A model generated the notes under the pieces. The model ran no database searches. It was not told the DNA's origin and saw nothing but the letters and a program-made list of their open reading frames with translations. DNA of 64,000 nt, taken from the NCBI RefSeq assembly GCF_003334765.1, contig NZ_QOWT01000002.1; one strand, given 5' to 3'. A program made the translations under genes and the position numbers. The stretch comes from Escherichia coli. Its GTDB lineage: Bacteria > Pseudomonadota > Gammaproteobacteria > Enterobacterales > Enterobacteriaceae. This document shows, one piece after another, positions 1,090 through 50,491 of the stretch (position 1 is the first letter of the stretch; the number at the start of each line of letters is the position of its first letter).

Positions 1090-2247
1090 TTATCTTGATG
1101 TTTTAGATATTGCCGGTCCGGCAGCACGCAAAGTTAACTGACGCCAGAGCCATTCCACCGGCCCCTGGCGGAAGTAACGCAGCCAGATAACAGAGAAGAG
1201 GATATTCGCCAGCCATACCGGAATAACAAACGCCAGCAGCTCCAGGCGGTCAAAATGCATAAACAAACCGAGGTGGTAAAAAAGCGTGGTACAAATCAGC
1301 GTTTGCAATAGATAGTTGGTCAGCGCCATCCGTCCGACGCAGGCGATCGCAAGCACCAGCTTAAAGCGGCTCAATTGCGGCCAGAAGCCATAAAACAGCG
1401 ACGCATAGCCAATCGCCTGAAACGGCGCACTCAGTTCCCGCGGCATTTGAAGTAAGAAGGCACACCAGCGATACGCCCAGTCCAGCTGCCATTGCAGGGC
1501 GATGGCAGGAAGGTTAATGGTCACCCCAATCGCCACCAGCACAAAACCAGTACGACGATAGTGACGTAAGCTGAACTGCCCTTTCAGCCAGCCGCTGCGC
1601 ATCAGCGCCGCACCAATGAGCATCATCCCTGCCAGTTGCCAGCCATACTGTGCGCCCAGTGCCAGTAAACTGTTGCCAACACCATCGGCACGATAACTGA
1701 TCGCTTCAACGCCGCCGTGAAGCTTCCAGTATTTTTCATACAAAATAGCCGATGCATCCGGCGTCCAGGCGCGGCTGGTCTGGCTGTCGGAAATCAGCCC
1801 CAATAACAGCAAAACGCCAAGCCCCACCAGATAAAGCATGACGCCTGTATTAAACAGGCTTTTTACCGATGGCGCATCGCGCACCAGCCGCCAGCAGATT
1901 AAGCCCACCAGCCCGTAAGCCAGCAAAATATCGCCGTCCCAGAACAATAAACCGTGAATAAAGCCCAACAAGACTAACAGCGTTAACCGCGACTGGATCC
2001 AGCGTCTGCCACGGGGCAGCAACATTTGCAGGCCCGCACCAAACAGTAGCGCAAAAAGCGTGAGGAATTTCACCTGGCCGATGAGATCAAGAAATGCCCA
2101 AGTCCATGCATCCCGCGGCGTAATAGCACCGTACCAGGCGGGATTGAGATAAGCCGCCTTTGGTAGCCCAAAGGCGCTGATGTTTAATAGCAGGATCCCC
2201 AGAATGGCGACGCCGCGAACAAAATCGAGCGTGACGTTGCGCTCCAT
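1090..2247 (-). CDS. yeiB: Inner membrane protein YeiB (DUF418 family), 385 aa
   Basis: ORF track 385 aa, hydrophobic multi-pass profile, position between galS and folE. Confidence 0.9.
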   Translation of the reverse strand: MERNVTLDFVRGVAILGILLLNISAFGLPKAAYLNPAWYGAITPRDAWTWAFLDLIGQVKFLTLFALLFGAGLQMLLPRGRRWIQSRLTLLVLLGFIHGLLFWDGDILLAYGLVGLICWRLVRDAPSVKSLFNTGVMLYLVGLGVLLLLGLISDSQTSRAWTPDASAILYEKYWKLHGGVEAISYRADGVGNSLLALGAQYGWQLAGMMLIGAALMRSGWLKGQFSLRHYRRTGFVLVAIGVTINLPAIALQWQLDWAYRWCAFLLQMPRELSAPFQAIGYASLFYGFWPQLSRFKLVLAIACVGRMALTNYLLQTLICTTLFYHLGLFMHFDRLELLAFVIPVWLANILFSVIWLRYFRQGPVEWLWRQLTLRAAGPAISKTSR

Positions 2248-45669: not shown

Positions 45670-48261
45670 TCAGAACGTCCAGACCACACCCGCCTGAGTA
45701 TTCCACGGCGATTCTACCCCTGCGCCATTGCCATAGCTGACTGACAAATGACCGCTTAACGTCGGGGTAAACGATGACCTTATACCAGCCTGATAAACGC
45801 CACTGGTTCCAGCCACATCATTATTAAATTTGCCATCGTCATTAACTTTCACCTGGTTAGAATCGGCGTATTCCTGACGCACGGCCGCTTTCAGCCAGGG
45901 TTCCAGCGTCGTACCGTTTTGCAGGTCCATGTGATAGCTTACCGCCGTTCCCGCTTCAGCGCGTAATATCCGGGTATTTCCCACATCCGCGCGCATGCCG
46001 TTTGATAACGTGTAGTCCTGACCATCTGTGGTAAAGCCGGTAAAGGCCAGATAGGGTCTAACACTCCACAATCCGTCAACCCAACGGAACCCGCTCTCAA
46101 CATGAGCACCCGCGCCGTTACTATTGTAATCGCCAAACGCTGTTGCCCCATTACTCATCTTGCCATGGATGGTGTTGGCAAAACGGTCAACTTTCACCAC
46201 CCCATCAACATAGGCACCGTTCTGATGCTCCCAACCGGCATAAGCCCCCAGGGTATAGCTATCGATATTACCTTTGCCGCCGCGATCAAAACCAATATCA
46301 GAATGAGAGTAACCAAAGATCAAGCCGCGAATTGTACTGCTTTCTTCACGGGAGAAACGGCTATCGATACCGAGCGTCAGGCCCGTCAATGTTTGCTCAA
46401 AACCAGCTCCCGCATCAGTGGTCACGTTGTTGCGGGTGTTAATTGCCGAACTCCACATCGCCGTATCGTAACTAACGCCTTTTACGCTACCAAGACGCTC
46501 ACGCACGGTGTCCAGTTCTGCATCAAATACCAGCGGTTGTGCGGCCGCCATATTCAGCACATCAGTGGTTGAAGGGGTAATTTGCGCGCGATTCTCTGCC
46601 AGACTCCAGCTATGGTTGCCATTATCCAGCAAGGTATATTCATACGTACCGATATCAACAACGCCTCCGGCATTGCCCAACGTAAATGCAGCATCACCGC
46701 CGCCCGTTGTTACCAGTGTAAGGCTATCTCCTGCTGCCGGGCTGGCACCGGTGTCCGTCACGAATATTTTGAAATCACCTGTTGCCTGACCGGTGACGTT
46801 GAGCTGATCGCTCTGATGATTAGCCATATCGGTACGCATATAAAAATTGCCGTTTCCCGACAGGGTATTGGTGGTCAACGTAATGAAATTTTCCGCACTT
46901 GCCGTCACTGATGAACGAGTCACTGGCTCATCCATCATAATCACATTTGCGTCAGACATCGCAAGGTTGGCTAAGTTGAGGAGGGTGTTTTGGTTCGTCG
47001 TAGTGATATCGGCAATGATGGTCCATACGCTATTTTCGAGCGAAACGTCCGCTTTGCTGGTATCCACGGCACCATGCGTTCTAAAAGAAGCGCCCTCAGA
47101 AACCACTACCTTACCCACCAACATTGCGGGTGCATAATTTATTTGCGGCTTCATGACCTCAAGAATGCCATCATTCCCTCTGACTGAAACGTTAACCATT
47201 GTGCCAGCCCAGACGTTAGCGCGGCCATTGTTGATAACCATATTTTCAGAGATGGCTTTTGAGGAATACGTGATACTTCCATTCTGATATGATCGACCGA
47301 GATCATATACCGCATTTGCCTGCACTTTCGTACCAGTATCCTTTCCCAGCGATTGCATAGTGGCATGCTTATCAAGGATAGTATCAATGGCCTGCGTGTC
47401 CTCCATAACAATGAGCCCGGAACCATCATCCAGTTCATAATTTTTTGACACACCATCTTTTATACTAAATTGGCCTTTACTGTTTGGACCACTCACTTCC
47501 AGCGCATTCGTTGAGACAATTAATTTTCCGCCTGCTTTTTTATCAACGCCAGTTACAGTCCCGCCATCCATAACCTCCAGTAAGCCGCCACTATCTACAG
47601 TGGTATTATAAGCGAAGTCATTTTCTTCAACTCGCAAACTTCCGCCGTTTTCCAACAACATATTATTAGCAATACCATTCTTGATATCGAACTGACCGAG
47701 ACGGTTTGTTCCGAATACCTCCATGGCCCGCGTGGTTGTTTTAATAGCACCGCCTGCTTTCTGATCTACCGCAAATGCAAATCCCCCCTCTTTAACCTCC
47801 AGTAGTCCTCCCTTTTCGATAGCGACAAAGACGGCCCCCCCATCTTTTTCAACGATTAAGCGCCCGCCTTTAATCGTGGTATCATTCGCTGCGCCATAAA
47901 CCTGTAGCACACCATTATTGAGCGTAGTCTGGTTTGCCGCGCCACCCATTTGAACAATTTGATAACCGTCATTTAATACTGAGTATTCTGCGGCGCCATT
48001 CATTTCAATGTACTGATACCCTCCGTTAATTTCAGTATTATTACTTACACCAAATTCTTTTATATGCTGTTCTCCGCCAGGATTGATTTTCGTATTATTG
48101 GCGGTCCCATAAACCAGCTGGATATCTTTTTCCAGGACAACACCATCAACTGTCTCACCATACTCAACAGTTGATGCCAATGCTATGGGTGAATATAACG
48201 CTGTAGCCACCAGAACAGATATTGCGGAACGACAAAGAGAAACAGAACCAGATTGATGCAT
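45670..48261 (-). CDS. yejO: Autotransporter (type Va) adhesin-like protein YejO, 863 aa, apparently intact
   Basis: ORF track 863 aa; N-terminal signal peptide, repetitive passenger domain, C-terminal beta-barrel ending ...AGVVWTF; AT-rich upstream region. Confidence 0.85.
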   Translation of the reverse strand: MHQSGSVSLCRSAISVLVATALYSPIALASTVEYGETVDGVVLEKDIQLVYGTANNTKINPGGEQHIKEFGVSNNTEINGGYQYIEMNGAAEYSVLNDGYQIVQMGGAANQTTLNNGVLQVYGAANDTTIKGGRLIVEKDGGAVFVAIEKGGLLEVKEGGFAFAVDQKAGGAIKTTTRAMEVFGTNRLGQFDIKNGIANNMLLENGGSLRVEENDFAYNTTVDSGGLLEVMDGGTVTGVDKKAGGKLIVSTNALEVSGPNSKGQFSIKDGVSKNYELDDGSGLIVMEDTQAIDTILDKHATMQSLGKDTGTKVQANAVYDLGRSYQNGSITYSSKAISENMVINNGRANVWAGTMVNVSVRGNDGILEVMKPQINYAPAMLVGKVVVSEGASFRTHGAVDTSKADVSLENSVWTIIADITTTNQNTLLNLANLAMSDANVIMMDEPVTRSSVTASAENFITLTTNTLSGNGNFYMRTDMANHQSDQLNVTGQATGDFKIFVTDTGASPAAGDSLTLVTTGGGDAAFTLGNAGGVVDIGTYEYTLLDNGNHSWSLAENRAQITPSTTDVLNMAAAQPLVFDAELDTVRERLGSVKGVSYDTAMWSSAINTRNNVTTDAGAGFEQTLTGLTLGIDSRFSREESSTIRGLIFGYSHSDIGFDRGGKGNIDSYTLGAYAGWEHQNGAYVDGVVKVDRFANTIHGKMSNGATAFGDYNSNGAGAHVESGFRWVDGLWSVRPYLAFTGFTTDGQDYTLSNGMRADVGNTRILRAEAGTAVSYHMDLQNGTTLEPWLKAAVRQEYADSNQVKVNDDGKFNNDVAGTSGVYQAGIRSSFTPTLSGHLSVSYGNGAGVESPWNTQAGVVWTF

Positions 48262-48580
48262 TGAGCTTTCATCCTATGAAATTAATTGCTGTTAAAAGCA
48301 TTGGGTACAGAAAATACCCATAGCTCCATACCCGGAGTCAGTTTTTAAAAACTGTTTAAAGAAATGCACAAGTATTGTGATTGATTTTTTAGTTGTTTTT
48401 CTTGATGAGAAGCTGATGCAAAATTCCGTCTTTATAATGAAAATGATGCCAAAGCGAACGACAAGGTTGTAGTTTTCACTACATGTCCATACATAAAATG
48501 GGGTAACATTCACGCGCCTGGTAGCGTTACCAACGCTACGCTCAAACATAATGATTCTAATAAAACCTCAGGAGACTACT

Positions 48581-49228
48581 ATGCCTGAAGCAACGCCTTT
48601 TCAGGTGATGATTGTGGATGATCATCCACTTATGCGACGCGGTGTTCGTCAGTTACTGGAGCTTGATCCTGGCTTTGAAGTGGTCGCCGAAGCGGGCGAC
48701 GGCGCGAGCGCTATCGATCTGGCGAATAGACTGGATATCGACGTGATCTTGCTGGATCTCAATATGAAAGGTATGAGTGGCCTGGATACTCTCAATGCCT
48801 TGCGCAGGGATGGCGTTACCGCGCAAATTATTATCCTGACCGTATCCGATGCCTCCAGCGATGTCTTTGCGCTGATAGACGCAGGCGCAGACGGTTATCT
48901 GTTGAAAGACAGCGACCCGGAAGTATTGCTGGAAGCGATTCGTGCCGGAGCGAAAGGCAGCAAAGTCTTTAGCGAACGCGTCAATCAGTACTTACGTGAA
49001 CGTGAAATGTTTGGCGCGGAAGAAGATCCCTTCAGCGTGCTGACGGAGCGCGAGCTGGATGTTCTGCACGAGCTGGCACAGGGGCTGTCAAATAAACAGA
49101 TTGCCTCGGTGTTGAATATTTCCGAGCAGACAGTAAAAGTACATATTCGCAATCTGCTGCGTAAACTCAATGTCCGCTCACGCGTGGCGGCCACCATTCT
49201 GTTCCTGCAACAACGCGGGGCACAATAA
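48581..49228 (+). CDS. narP: Nitrate/nitrite response regulator NarP (NarL/FixJ family), 215 aa; track ORF begins 10 codons upstream
   Basis: Receiver domain (MIVDDHPLMRRG) plus LuxR-type HTH; RBS aggag 7 nt upstream of the ATG at 48581. Confidence 0.93.
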   Translation: MPEATPFQVMIVDDHPLMRRGVRQLLELDPGFEVVAEAGDGASAIDLANRLDIDVILLDLNMKGMSGLDTLNALRRDGVTAQIIILTVSDASSDVFALIDAGADGYLLKDSDPEVLLEAIRAGAKGSKVFSERVNQYLREREMFGAEEDPFSVLTERELDVLHELAQGLSNKQIASVLNISEQTVKVHIRNLLRKLNVRSRVAATILFLQQRGAQ

Positions 49229-49232
49229 AAAT

Positions 49233-49257
49233 AGCCCGATGGATTTATCATCGGGCT
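49233..49257. terminator. Hairpin (GCCCGATG..CATCGGGC) just after the narP stop; T-run on the minus strand, so likely the distal terminator of the nap-ccm transcript
   Basis: Inverted repeat seen in sequence; paired with a similar hairpin at 49410-49441. Confidence 0.5.
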
Positions 49258-49280
49258 GAGATTTATGACAAACGCAAAAC

Positions 49281-49380
49281 TGCCTGATGCGCTACGCTTA
49301 TCAGGCCTACGTGGATCGATCAATTTATTGAATTTACACAATTTTGTAGGCCGGATAAGGCGTTCACGCCGCATCCGACA
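49281..49380. repeat. REP pair (BIME) between convergent narP and ccmH
   Basis: tgcctgatgcgctacgcttatcaggcctac and gtaggccggataaggcgttcacgccgcatccgaca. Confidence 0.85.
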
Positions 49381-49409
49381 TAAACTAAGCGCACTTTGTC
49401 AACAGTCTA

Positions 49410-49441
49410 GCCCGATGGCATCACCATCGGGCCTCTTTTTA
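49410..49441 (+). terminator. Hairpin GCCCGATGG..CCATCGGGC followed by CTCTTTTTATTT on the plus strand; likely narP terminator, overlapping the ccmH stop
   Basis: Seen in sequence. Confidence 0.6.
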
Positions 49442-50491
49442 TTTACTCTCCTGCGGCGACAAATGTTGCATCGCCTGCGCGATACTACGTTCAATCACCG
49501 CACGGCGAGTATCGTTGGCAGGTAAGAGTTTCAACATCATCTCCCACGCGGCAACGGCTTCGCCAAATCGCTGCTGCTCAAAGGCATTAAACGCATACAT
49601 GCTTAGCACACGGATATTGCTATGGTCCGTTCTCACCAGCTGACGTAGCAGTTCACCGCCGAGGCGGTTGTCGTTGGGATCAGATGAACGAGTCAACGCT
49701 TCAGCGTATCCCAGTGCAGCATCACTGTTTTTCGGATCGAGGCGATACGCAGTGGCGTATGCATCGGTGGCGATACTGGCGTTACCCAGCGCCATGCCAA
49801 CGCGGCCCAACATAATCCAGCCTTCTATATCTCCCGGATTTTTTTGCAGTTGAGTACGCATCCCCAGCGCAAGACGCGACATCTCTTCTTCGTTGAGCGG
49901 ATCGGCTTTCGGATCCAGCGCCCTGTCCAGCAACGCCGGAGCCTGTGCCGTGGCCTGCTGCCAGATTTTCACCTGCTGATAATTGCCAGTCTGGTAGTAG
50001 CTGACGCCAGCCACAATTAACGCCACCACAATACCCGGCAGATAAACAACATATCCGGCACGCTTACCTTCCGGCACGCTTTGTTCAGGAAACGCTTCCG
50101 GCACCACGCGTACCCGACGCCGCGAGCGGGCGTATATGACCCAACCGCCAATGCCAATAGCCACTACTGGCAGCACCCACAGCAGCACGGTCAGCGGCGT
50201 TAACGGCGGATCGTAAGTGACGAAGTTGCCGTAACGCGCCACCATATAATCGACAATCTCTTTTTTACTTTTACCTTCCTGCATCAGTTCATACACTTTC
50301 TGACGCAGGTCGGTGGCAATCATCGAGTTGGAATCGGCAATGCTGTTGTTCTGGCATTTCGGGCAGCGCAGTTCTTCAGTGAGCTGACGGAACTGTTGTT
50401 CCTGTGCTTCATCTTTAAACTGCAACACATCGATGGTCGCCAGCGCTGAGCCGGAGATCATCAGCATCAGCACGCCCAATAAAAACCTCAT
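49439..50491 (-). CDS. ccmH: Cytochrome c maturation protein CcmH (thiol-disulfide / TPR-like), 350 aa
   Basis: ORF track 350 aa; LRCPKCQNNSIADS motif. Confidence 0.93.
   Translation of the reverse strand: MRFLLGVLMLMISGSALATIDVLQFKDEAQEQQFRQLTEELRCPKCQNNSIADSNSMIATDLRQKVYELMQEGKSKKEIVDYMVARYGNFVTYDPPLTPLTVLLWVLPVVAIGIGGWVIYARSRRRVRVVPEAFPEQSVPEGKRAGYVVYLPGIVVALIVAGVSYYQTGNYQQVKIWQQATAQAPALLDRALDPKADPLNEEEMSRLALGMRTQLQKNPGDIEGWIMLGRVGMALGNASIATDAYATAYRLDPKNSDAALGYAEALTRSSDPNDNRLGGELLRQLVRTDHSNIRVLSMYAFNAFEQQRFGEAVAAWEMMLKLLPANDTRRAVIERSIAQAMQHLSPQESK

What the first reader, a model, noticed from the sequence alone, without database searches (positions are those of the whole stretch)
49229..49441. 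Mirror-image hairpins flanking a REP pair between convergent narP and ccmH
Two near-identical hairpins (GCCCGATGG..CCATCGGGC) sit at either end of the 210-bp convergent spacer. The one at 49410-49441 has a U-tract on the plus strand and overlaps the ccmH stop; the one at 49233-49257 has its U-tract on the minus strand and abuts the narP stop. Each gene therefore appears to terminate next to the other gene's stop codon, with a REP pair sandwiched between, so the two convergent transcripts would overlap by about 200 nt.
Basis: seen in the sequence. Interest (0 to 1): 0.25.

Follow-up and report, generated by a model that had tools for sequence, protein, structure and literature searches.

The report
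Shared terminator hairpin duplicated around BIME-1
Between narP and ccmH, a known E. coli repeat (a BIME-1/REP pair) sits between two copies of a hairpin that in most strains is a single terminator shared by both genes; the locus itself is ordinary, but the same hairpin duplication recurs at many BIME-1 copies and hints at how these repeats insert.

Summary
Two near-identical GC-rich hairpins (49233-49257 and 49410-49432) bracket a REP pair. The left one has its U-tract only on the minus strand, the right one only on the plus strand.

The REP pair is a complete BIME-1 (RIB/RIP) element. The hairpins are a direct duplication of one 23-nt stem-loop. About 72% of 5,426 complete E. coli genomes lack exactly 176 bp here. 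They carry a single hairpin with an A-run on one side and a T-run on the other, in a 34-bp spacer. The long form also occurs, diverged, in E. albertii and another Escherichia lineage. The insertion is therefore old, and the short E. coli form is best read as a later deletion between the hairpin copies.

Published 3'-end maps of MG1655 show ends at both distal hairpins: 49440 (+), strong, and 49227 (-). They also show ends at both proximal hairpins: 49259 (+) and 49404 (-).

The same "hairpin | BIME-1 | hairpin" versus "one hairpin" dimorphism occurs at four other convergent gene pairs. About 40% of sampled BIME-1 copies show it. The locus is ordinary; the duplication signature may be a useful clue to how BIME-1 moves.

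The parts
48581..49228 (+). narP coding sequence (start as annotated in K-12; the mechanical ORF starts at 48551)
   Evidence: MG1655 narP is 2290500-2291147; the offset between window and MG1655 coordinates is 2241919.
49223..49257 (-). Hairpin 1 plus its U-tract on the minus strand (AGCCCGAUGauaaaucCAUCGGGCU-A-UUUUU-A-UUG). This is the distal intrinsic terminator for the nap-ccm transcript. On the plus strand it is a hairpin without a U-tract.
   Evidence: A minus-strand 3' end is mapped at 49227 (PMC10687069). A plus-strand 3' end at 49259 lies 2 nt past the stem.
49257..49409 (.). Complete BIME-1 (RIB/RIP) element, 153 bp. It consists of the A motif TGAGATTTATGACAAACGCAAAAC (49257-49280), the Y REP (49281-49310), the L linker (49311-49345) with an IHF-like core GATCAATTTATTG (49318-49330), the Z1 REP (49346-49379) and the B motif (49380-49409).
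   Evidence: It aligns end to end with BIME-1 copies at yjbR-uvrA, aspC and entD-fepA and with about 20 further loci. The REP arms form an inverted repeat (I2). Rfam gives only sub-threshold hits, to ES036/CssrF on L and to naRNA4 on Z1.
49410..49444 (+). Hairpin 2 plus its U-tract on the plus strand (GCCCGAUGGcaucaCCAUCGGGC-CUCUUUUUAUUU). This is the distal intrinsic terminator for narP. On the minus strand it is a hairpin without a U-tract, immediately after the ccmH stop codon.
   Evidence: Plus-strand 3' ends are mapped at 49440. A minus-strand boundary at 49404 comes from bidirectional-terminator entry 181.
49243..49418 (.). The 176-bp segment present in the window but absent from about 72% of E. 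coli genomes. This is one of several equivalent placements within the repeat TAGCCCGATGG. It equals the BIME-1 (153 bp) plus one hairpin copy (23 bp).
   Evidence: (alignment A1), plus (1512 of 5426 genomes carry the intact long form).
49439..50491 (-). ccmH coding sequence, the last gene of the nap-ccm operon

Best explanation
The spacer is a BIME-1 (RIB/RIP) repeat element flanked by a direct duplication of the stem-loop that originally served as one bidirectional intrinsic terminator for the convergent narP and nap-ccm transcripts.

The insertion separated the two halves of that terminator. The left copy kept only the upstream A-run, which is a U-tract for minus-strand RNA. The right copy kept only the downstream T-run, a U-tract for plus-strand RNA. 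Each transcript therefore first meets a hairpin without a U-tract. 3' ends are seen 1-7 nt past those stems; I infer these come from hairpin-only or collision-assisted termination, or from exonuclease trimming. Transcripts that read through cross the BIME-1 and stop at the canonical distal terminator beside the other gene's stop codon. This gives roughly 212-nt 3' UTRs that overlap by 214 nt.

The insertion predates the E. coli / E. albertii split (inferred). Most E. coli later lost the BIME-1 plus one hairpin copy by recombination or slippage between the hairpin repeats, which restored a single bidirectional terminator (inferred).

The duplication is a target-site duplication of the whole stem-loop, made when the BIME-1 integrated. 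This is inferred from the recurrence of the pattern at other loci.
For: Anatomy.

Indel: 1505-1512 of 5426 complete genomes have the long form. The rest are exactly 176 bp shorter and read AAAAATAGCCCGATGGCATCACCATCGGGCCTCTTTTTATTT.

Age: the same hairpin1-BIME-1-hairpin2 arrangement, with many substitutions, is found in E. albertii (L010), Escherichia strain SCPM-O-B-8794 (L009) and E. coli E69 (L008). E. whittamii (L040) has one hairpin whose loop resembles that of hairpin 1. Salmonella diarizonae (L016) has one hairpin, GCCCGATGGcctggcaCCACCGGGC.

Deletion origin of the short form: the short E. coli allele shares its loop (CATCA) and T-run (CTCTTTTTATTT) with the right half of the K-12-type long allele, not with E. 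albertii or E69.

Transcript ends: + 49440, - 49227 and + 49259, - 49404.

Generality:
- In 24 sampled BIME-1 loci, 9 have left and right flanks that align with score >=12, against 0.5% of 552 non-cognate flank pairs.
- The duplicated unit is 16-28 nt, equals the stem-loop and abuts both element ends. Identity in direct orientation is at least that in inverted orientation in all 10 pairs, and strictly higher in 9.
- Filled/empty pairs at mog-satP, uspB-pitA, pbp4b-yfeX and metE-ysgA all show exactly one hairpin in the empty allele.
Against: - No insertion event was observed. A target duplication of variable length (16-28 nt) is unlike classical transposases, and relatives of the REP-associated transposase make no target duplication (PMC3333891).
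- The two narP-ccmH copies differ at 4 of 6 loop positions. This requires either long divergence or a non-copying origin.
- About half of the sampled BIME-1 copies have a hairpin on one side only, or none.
- E. whittamii's single hairpin could be the pre-insertion state rather than a second deletion.
- The 3'-end data come from aerobic LB or minimal-medium cultures, where nap-ccm is poorly expressed. The minus-strand end at 49227 was significant in only 2 of 3 libraries.
- I inferred the meaning of the columns in the bidirectional-terminator table from its entries; I did not read its header.
Confidence: 0.8

Rival explanations
1. The arrangement is a purpose-built regulatory device (excludon-like). 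Crossed terminators would be selected so that narP and nap-ccm transcripts overlap and repress each other through RNase III or transcriptional interference.
For: Distal 3' ends on both strands give a 214-nt overlap. NarP regulates the nap-ccm operon (established knowledge), so cross-talk would make biological sense. The arrangement has persisted since before the E. albertii split.
Against: 72% of E. coli genomes have lost it. The same architecture arises at unrelated gene pairs wherever a BIME-1 sits. Proximal 3' ends exist for both genes. No narP or ccmH entry appears in the p19-captured RNase III dsRNA tables. Each 3' UTR is predicted to fold on itself into a long quasi-palindrome, which would compete with intermolecular pairing.
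Confidence: 0.1
2. The long form is a recent insertion into an ancestral single terminator within E. coli, and the short form is simply the untouched ancestral state.
For: Long-allele genomes cluster at >=99.3% identity to the window, whereas short-allele flanks are 97-98.7% identical. Salmonella diarizonae and E. whittamii have single hairpins.
Against: Orthologous long alleles, diverged in sequence, exist in E. albertii, a second Escherichia lineage and E. coli E69. About 100 E. coli genomes carry a second, diverged long haplotype. The short allele's loop and T-run match the right half of the K-12-type long allele.
Confidence: 0.12
3. The two hairpins are not a target duplication. They are decayed REP units, so the whole spacer would be an old composite REP cluster.
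For: In several Citrobacter species a true REP, GCCCGATGGCGCTACGCTTATCGGGCCTAC, sits at the same place after the narP stop codon and shares the arms GCCCGATGG and ATCGGGCC.
Against: At nine other BIME-1 loci the flanking hairpins are locus-specific sequences unrelated to REPs, and they equal the single hairpin of the empty allele. The Escherichia hairpins lack the GTAG/CTAC tetranucleotide.
Confidence: 0.1
4. Only the proximal hairpins matter. Each gene ends at the hairpin next to its own stop codon, and the distal signals are minor read-through.
For: Proximal ends are reported at 49259 (+) with signal 0.52 and at 49404 (-) in log and stationary phase.
Against: The strongest and most reproducible 3' end in the spacer is the distal narP end at 49440. 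It appears in three Term-seq datasets and has TRS signal 0.96-0.99. The proximal ends lie only 2 and 6 nt (49259 and 49404) past stems that lack a U-tract, which fits trimming or assisted termination.
Confidence: 0.15

Closest known systems
BIME-1 / RIB / RIP elements of E. coli (a Y REP and a Z1 REP in inverted orientation, separated by the long L linker with an IHF site)
   Same: The element has the same parts in the same order, about 150 bp in total. It is a single copy, extragenic, and lies at the 3' end of transcription units (description in PMC3333891).
   Different: Nothing in the element itself differs. What I could not find in the searchable literature is the duplicated target hairpin at its borders.
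Overlapping bidirectional intrinsic terminators between convergent genes (a list of 306, reused in bioRxiv 10.64898/2026.03.23.713779; I attribute it to Ju et al. 2019 from memory)
   Same: The short allele is a textbook case: A-run, GC-rich hairpin, T-run in a 34-bp spacer. Hairpin 2 of the long allele is itself entry 181 of that list, associated with REP160.
   Different: In the long allele the A-run and the T-run are 176 bp apart on two separate hairpin copies, so the canonical terminators are crossed.
REPIN excision leaving a single long palindrome (Pseudomonas fluorescens SBW25; PMC3337134)
   Same: The central element is lost between two palindromic units, leaving one palindrome.
   Different: There the remaining palindrome is built from the two REPs themselves. 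Here the repeats are duplicated host terminator hairpins outside the element.
Miniature inverted-repeat transposable elements with target-site duplications
   Same: The element has imperfect terminal inverted repeats (TGAGAcTGATGACAAA / TTTGTCAAcAATCTGA), flanking direct repeats and presence/absence polymorphism.
   Different: The duplication length is not fixed. It equals the length of the target stem-loop (16-28 nt). The candidate enzyme (RAYT/TnpA-REP) belongs to a family that makes no target duplication.
Excludons / overlapping convergent 3' UTRs
   Same: Convergent transcripts overlap by about 200 nt.
   Different: There is no evidence for mutual repression or RNase III processing at this locus.

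Membership tests
BIME-1 / RIB / RIP | One Y-type REP and one Z1-type REP in inverted orientation | tested here: met
   49281-49310 reads TGCCTGATGCGCTACGCTTATCAGGCCTAC and 49346-49379 reads GTAGGCCGGATAAGGCGTTCACGCCGCATCCGAC. They form inverted repeat I2 and align with other copies.
BIME-1 / RIB / RIP | Long L linker carrying an IHF consensus site (WATCAANNNNTTR) | tested here: inconclusive
   The 35-nt linker contains GATCAATTTATTG (49318-49330), which matches 12 of 13 consensus positions (read). IHF binding was not tested.
BIME-1 / RIB / RIP | Conserved outer flanking motifs, single copy per locus, extragenic position at the 3' end of transcription units | tested here: met
   The flanks TGAGAtTtATGACAAACGCAAAAC and GCGCACTTTGTCAACAgTCTA are shared with about 20 other loci. 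The element lies between two stop codons.
Intrinsic (Rho-independent) terminator | GC-rich stem-loop directly followed by a U-tract on the transcribed strand | tested here: met
   Met for hairpin 2 on the + strand and hairpin 1 on the - strand. Not met for the opposite strand of each hairpin.
Intrinsic (Rho-independent) terminator | RNA 3' end mapped within the U-tract in vivo | tested here: met
   Published data: 49440 (+) and 49227 (-). Independence from Rho was not tested.
Bidirectional terminator (short allele) | A single hairpin flanked by an A-run and a T-run between convergent genes | tested here: met
   Alignment A1 of O157, AR437 and O2:H6. 3' ends in a short-allele strain were not examined.
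Mobile element with target-site duplication | Direct repeats of host sequence abutting both element ends, and an empty site holding one copy | tested here: met
   Seen at narP-ccmH, mog-satP (63), uspB-pitA (64), pbp4b-yfeX (71) and metE-ysgA (72).
Mobile element with target-site duplication | Demonstrated transposition by a cognate enzyme (TnpA-REP/RAYT) | not testable with these tools
   Requires an in vitro or in vivo assay.
Excludon | Overlapping convergent transcripts that reduce each other's expression | tested here: inconclusive
   The overlap is supported by 3' ends. No functional data exist, and the locus is absent from the p19 dsRNA tables.

The most novel reading that the evidence does not exclude
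BIME-1 elements integrate specifically at GC-rich terminator palindromes through a structure-directed staggered break at the two feet of the stem-loop. The whole hairpin (16-28 nt) is therefore duplicated as a variable-length target-site duplication, and the element can later be lost by recombination between the copies.

This would toggle convergent gene pairs between a shared bidirectional terminator and two half-terminators with ~200-nt antisense 3' UTR overlap. It would also give the first sequence signature of how BIME-1/REPIN-type repeats enter new sites.
Probability: 0.35. Interest if true: 0.6.

Novelty: new member of a known kind. Interest (0 to 1): 0.33.

Why it matters
For this locus alone, it matters little. 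The REP (REP160), hairpin 2 as a terminator, and the 3' ends are all already in public tables.

The value lies in the explanation. A common repeat element converts a shared bidirectional terminator into two half-terminators, and it does so polymorphically among strains. Otherwise identical genes therefore carry 3' UTRs of either a few nucleotides (both 3' ends fall within the 34-bp spacer) or about 212 nt.

If the hairpin duplication really is an insertion footprint, it constrains the still-unknown mechanism of REP/BIME dissemination. It also identifies intrinsic terminators as the preferred target.

Tried and rejected
- My first hypothesis was that the long form is a recent K-12-lineage insertion. 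I dropped it after finding diverged long alleles in E. albertii and other Escherichia.
- I considered that the hairpins travel with the element. I rejected this because the hairpin sequences are locus-specific and equal the hairpin of the empty site.
- I looked for other BIME-1 copies in the window and found only this one.
- Literature that could not be used:
  - Bachellier et al. 1997 (PMC1207841, 'excisions of a whole BIME-1') is not held.
  - The searches on RIB/RIP terms and on REPIN/RAYT plus terminator plus duplication turned up no description of a hairpin duplication at BIME-1 borders.
  - The nanopore (PMC8848933) and Conway 2014 (PMC4161252) papers have no supplements held.
  - The p19/RNase III supplements have no narP or ccmH entry.
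- Rfam gave only sub-threshold hits to REP-derived families.
- An apparent third allele in metagenome contig L119 lacks the B motif and the left arm of hairpin 2. It has no counterpart in the complete genomes, since the left-part and right-part counts are both 1512. It may be a low-coverage assembly artefact.

Full report
**Observation**

The window is E. coli. narP ends at 49228 on the plus strand, and ccmH (49439-50491) converges on it from the minus strand. The offset to MG1655 coordinates is 2241919.

The 210-bp spacer starts with hairpin 1: AGCCCGATG-gatttat-CATCGGGCT (49233-49257). It ends with hairpin 2: GCCCGATGG-catca-CCATCGGGC (49410-49432). The consensus terminator scan calls hairpin 2 on the plus strand (tail CTCTTTTTAT) and hairpin 1 on the minus strand (tail ATTTTTATTG). 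All four RNA versions fold at -15.9 to -20.5 kcal/mol, with z-scores of -4.2 to -5.3.

The arm motif occurs only at these two places in 64 kb, where 0.00 occurrences are expected. The copies are a 25-nt direct repeat, 84% identical, spaced 176 nt apart. The one correction is that the hairpins are direct repeats of a palindrome; only the A- and T-runs are arranged as mirror images.

**What lies between the hairpins**

The 'REP pair' is a complete BIME-1 (also called RIB or RIP), spanning 49257-49409. Its parts are:
- an outer motif TGAGATTTATGACAAACGCAAAAC,
- a Y REP,
- a 35-nt L linker with an IHF-like core GATCAATTTATTG,
- a Z1 REP,
- and an outer motif ending TTTGTCAACAGTCTA.

The same element, end to end, is present at yjbR-uvrA, aspC and entD-fepA. 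It is also present at about twenty further loci recovered from metagenome contigs. Ton-Hoang et al. describe BIME-1 as a single-copy y + z1 pair with a long, IHF-binding linker (PMC3333891). Rfam gives only sub-threshold hits to REP-derived families.

**The hairpins are a duplication of one terminator**

All 5426 complete E. coli genomes contain the locus. Only 1505-1512 carry the long form. The others are exactly 176 bp shorter. In O157:H7 Xuzhou21, AR437 and an O2:H6 strain the spacer is 34 bp and reads TAAAAATAGCCCGATGGCATCACCATCGGGCCTCTTTTTATTT. That is one hairpin with an A-run upstream and a T-run downstream, the classic bidirectional terminator for a convergent pair. The 176 bp equal the BIME-1 (153 bp) plus one hairpin copy (23 bp).

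In the long form, the left copy keeps only the A-run and the right copy keeps only the T-run. That split produces the 'crossed' appearance.

**Direction and age**

I first assumed a recent insertion. The genome-collection scan with NarP overturned that. E. albertii, a second Escherichia lineage (SCPM-O-B-8794) and E. coli E69 all have hairpin1-BIME-1-hairpin2 at the same position, with many substitutions. About 100 E. coli genomes carry a second, diverged long haplotype.

Salmonella diarizonae has a single related hairpin, GCCCGATGG...CCACCGGGC. E. whittamii has a single hairpin whose loop (ATTAA) resembles that of hairpin 1. The short E. coli allele shares its loop (CATCA) and its T-run (CTCTTTTTATTT) with the right half of the K-12-type long allele, not with E. 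albertii or E69.

The most economical history has three steps (inferred):
1. One hairpin in the Escherichia/Salmonella ancestor.
2. BIME-1 arrival with hairpin duplication before the E. coli / E. albertii split.
3. Later loss of the BIME-1 plus one copy by recombination or slippage within TAGCCCGATGG. This form is now in about 72% of E. coli. A separate event, or retention of the ancestral state, explains E. whittamii.

The old age also explains why the two loops differ at 4 of 6 positions while the stems are intact.

**Transcript ends**

Four published 3' ends fall in the spacer.

| Window position | Strand | Hairpin | Source and strength |
|---|---|---|---|
| 49440 | + (narP) | distal (hairpin 2), last U of the U5 run | Term-seq, Adams et al. 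2021 (the only 3' end in the spacer, three occurrences in the supplementary tables); TRS signal 0.96-0.99 |
| 49259 | + (narP) | proximal (hairpin 1), 2 nt past the stem, no U-tract | TRS 'Primary narP', signal 0.52 |
| 49227 | - (nap-ccm) | distal (hairpin 1), in the U-run, inside the narP stop codon | TRS signal 0.51, significant in 2 of 3 libraries |
| 49404 | - (nap-ccm) | proximal (hairpin 2) | Boundary of bidirectional-terminator entry 181 (2291323-2291356), log and stationary phase, tagged REP160 |

The TRS values come from PMC10687069 (LB cultures). Entry 181 comes from a table reproduced in a 2026 preprint, which lists hairpin 2 alone as the narP / nap-ccm overlap. I inferred the table's column meanings from neighbouring entries and did not read the header. 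The preprint text attributes the list only to its reference 47; that this is the SEnd-seq study of Ju et al. 2019 is from my memory.

Each gene therefore has a proximal end at a hairpin without a U-tract and a distal end at a canonical terminator. Transcripts that reach the distal sites overlap by 214 nt.

All these data come from aerobic cultures, in which nap-ccm is weakly expressed. I found no dsRNA or RNase III evidence for the locus.

The full 216-nt spacer RNA of either strand is predicted to fold into one long quasi-palindrome (-83.7 and -91.8 kcal/mol; z -8.9 and -7.6). This intramolecular fold would compete with sense-antisense pairing.

**Generality**

I sampled BIME-1 copies from metagenome contigs, which gave 24 locus clusters. 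In 9 of them, the 42 nt left of the element and the sequence right of it align with score >=12. Only 0.5% of 552 non-cognate flank pairs reach that score.

The repeated unit is always a GC-rich stem-loop of 16-28 nt that abuts both element ends. The left copy usually follows an A-run and the right copy usually precedes a T-run. Identity in direct orientation is at least that in inverted orientation in all 10 pairs, and strictly higher in 9.

Four more convergent pairs show the same dimorphism among genomes.

| Gene pair | Filled genomes |
|---|---|
| mog-satP | 467 (K-12 is empty) |
| uspB-pitA | 1940 |
| pbp4b-yfeX | 1401 |
| metE-ysgA | 0 in E. coli; filled in a ~93%-identical Escherichia contig |

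In every case the empty allele holds exactly one hairpin. The hairpin sequences are locus-specific, so they are host target sequence and not cargo of the element.

I therefore read them as a target-site duplication whose length is set by the stem-loop. That implies a structure-directed staggered break at the feet of the hairpin, or of an extruded cruciform. The mechanism is inference only. The REP-associated transposase family is described as making no target duplication, and the in vivo route of REP insertion is stated to be unresolved.

About half of the sampled copies have a hairpin on one side only, or none. The signature is therefore common but not universal, or it decays.

**Comparison with known systems**

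- The element is an ordinary BIME-1.
- Hairpin 2 is already catalogued as a bidirectional terminator.
- REPs inside such terminators are known: 78 of 306.
- Loss of a central REPIN leaving one palindrome is described in Pseudomonas (PMC3337134).
- 'Excisions of a whole BIME-1' among E. coli isolates were reported in 1997. That is my recollection of the abstract of Bachellier et al. 1997; the paper is not held.

What I could not find in the searchable library is a statement that BIME-1 copies are bracketed by a duplicated terminator hairpin. The older BIME papers may contain it.

**Verdict**

The finding is real, and it is explained by a repeat element that split a shared terminator. The functional reading is partly supported. 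Interest in the locus itself is low. The recurrent hairpin duplication deserves a proper genome-wide census.

Noticed in passing
L019, L020, L022, L027, L028 (Citrobacter spp.), first ~60 nt after the narP stop codon; L016 (Salmonella diarizonae): At the position of the Escherichia hairpin, Citrobacter carries a true REP (GCCCGATGGCGCTACGCTTATCGGGCCTAC) paired with an inverted REP. S. diarizonae has GCCCGATGGcctggcaCCACCGGGC. The arms GCCCGATGG and ATCGGGCC are therefore conserved across genera, and the terminator hairpin may itself descend from a REP.
   Followed up: partly
L119, around its match at 1968-1993 (-); corresponds to window ~49370-49425: A metagenome contig (coverage about 2x) shows a third narP-ccmH form. 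In it the Z1 REP is fused directly to the right arm of hairpin 2 (GCCGCATC|ACCATCGGGCC), removing the B motif and the left arm. No complete E. coli genome appears to have it, since the left-part and right-part counts are both 1512. It is possibly an assembly artefact.
   Followed up: partly
window 49376-49422 (probably 49378): In this 47-nt stretch only 4 of the 1512 long-allele genomes match the window exactly. K-12 strains differ at one base. I guess the difference is A49378, which breaks the last G-C pair of the Z1 REP stem (CATCCGAC here, CATCCGGC in the other BIME-1 copies seen), but I did not align K-12 to check.
   Followed up: no
window 45670-48261 (-): The yejO autotransporter ORF is intact here (863 aa). 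In MG1655 it is a pseudogene interrupted by IS5K. The window therefore comes from a K-12-like strain that is not K-12; strain H3 is identical over the 461-nt query.
   Followed up: no
L006 (E. coli AR_0119, downstream of aspC), locus 440-660: An IS621 (IS110 family) copy is inserted exactly at the end of the Y REP of the aspC BIME-1 and replaces the rest of the element. This is an example of the known REP targeting by this insertion sequence. In strain F5656C1 an IS1 sits within the pbp4b-yfeX region matched by the L127 query (H100).
   Followed up: no
window 49226-49441, both strands: Because the two hairpins share their arms and the BIME-1 is itself an inverted repeat, the whole spacer is a 216-nt quasi-palindrome. 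The minimum-energy fold pairs hairpin 1 arms with hairpin 2 arms across the element (-83.7 and -91.8 kcal/mol). At the DNA level this is a potential cruciform.
   Followed up: partly
window 49303-49345 (-): The L linker scores 35.6 bits against Rfam ES036 (CssrF sRNA), just under its gathering score of 37.6. That 'sRNA' family looks like a BIME-1 linker.
   Followed up: no
window 49712-49727 (+): A weak terminator-like site (CAGTGCAGCATCACTG followed by TTTTTCGG) lies antisense inside ccmH. It is probably chance: 3 sites were found in the scanned region against 1.0 expected.
   Followed up: no
MG1655 2549407-2549445 (pbp4b-yfeX), seen in the supplement of bioRxiv 10.64898/2026.03.23.713779: In K-12 the left hairpin copy at the filled pbp4b-yfeX locus is itself listed as a bidirectional terminator (entry 368). 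Half-terminators next to BIME-1 are therefore scored as bidirectional in that list at other loci too.
   Followed up: no
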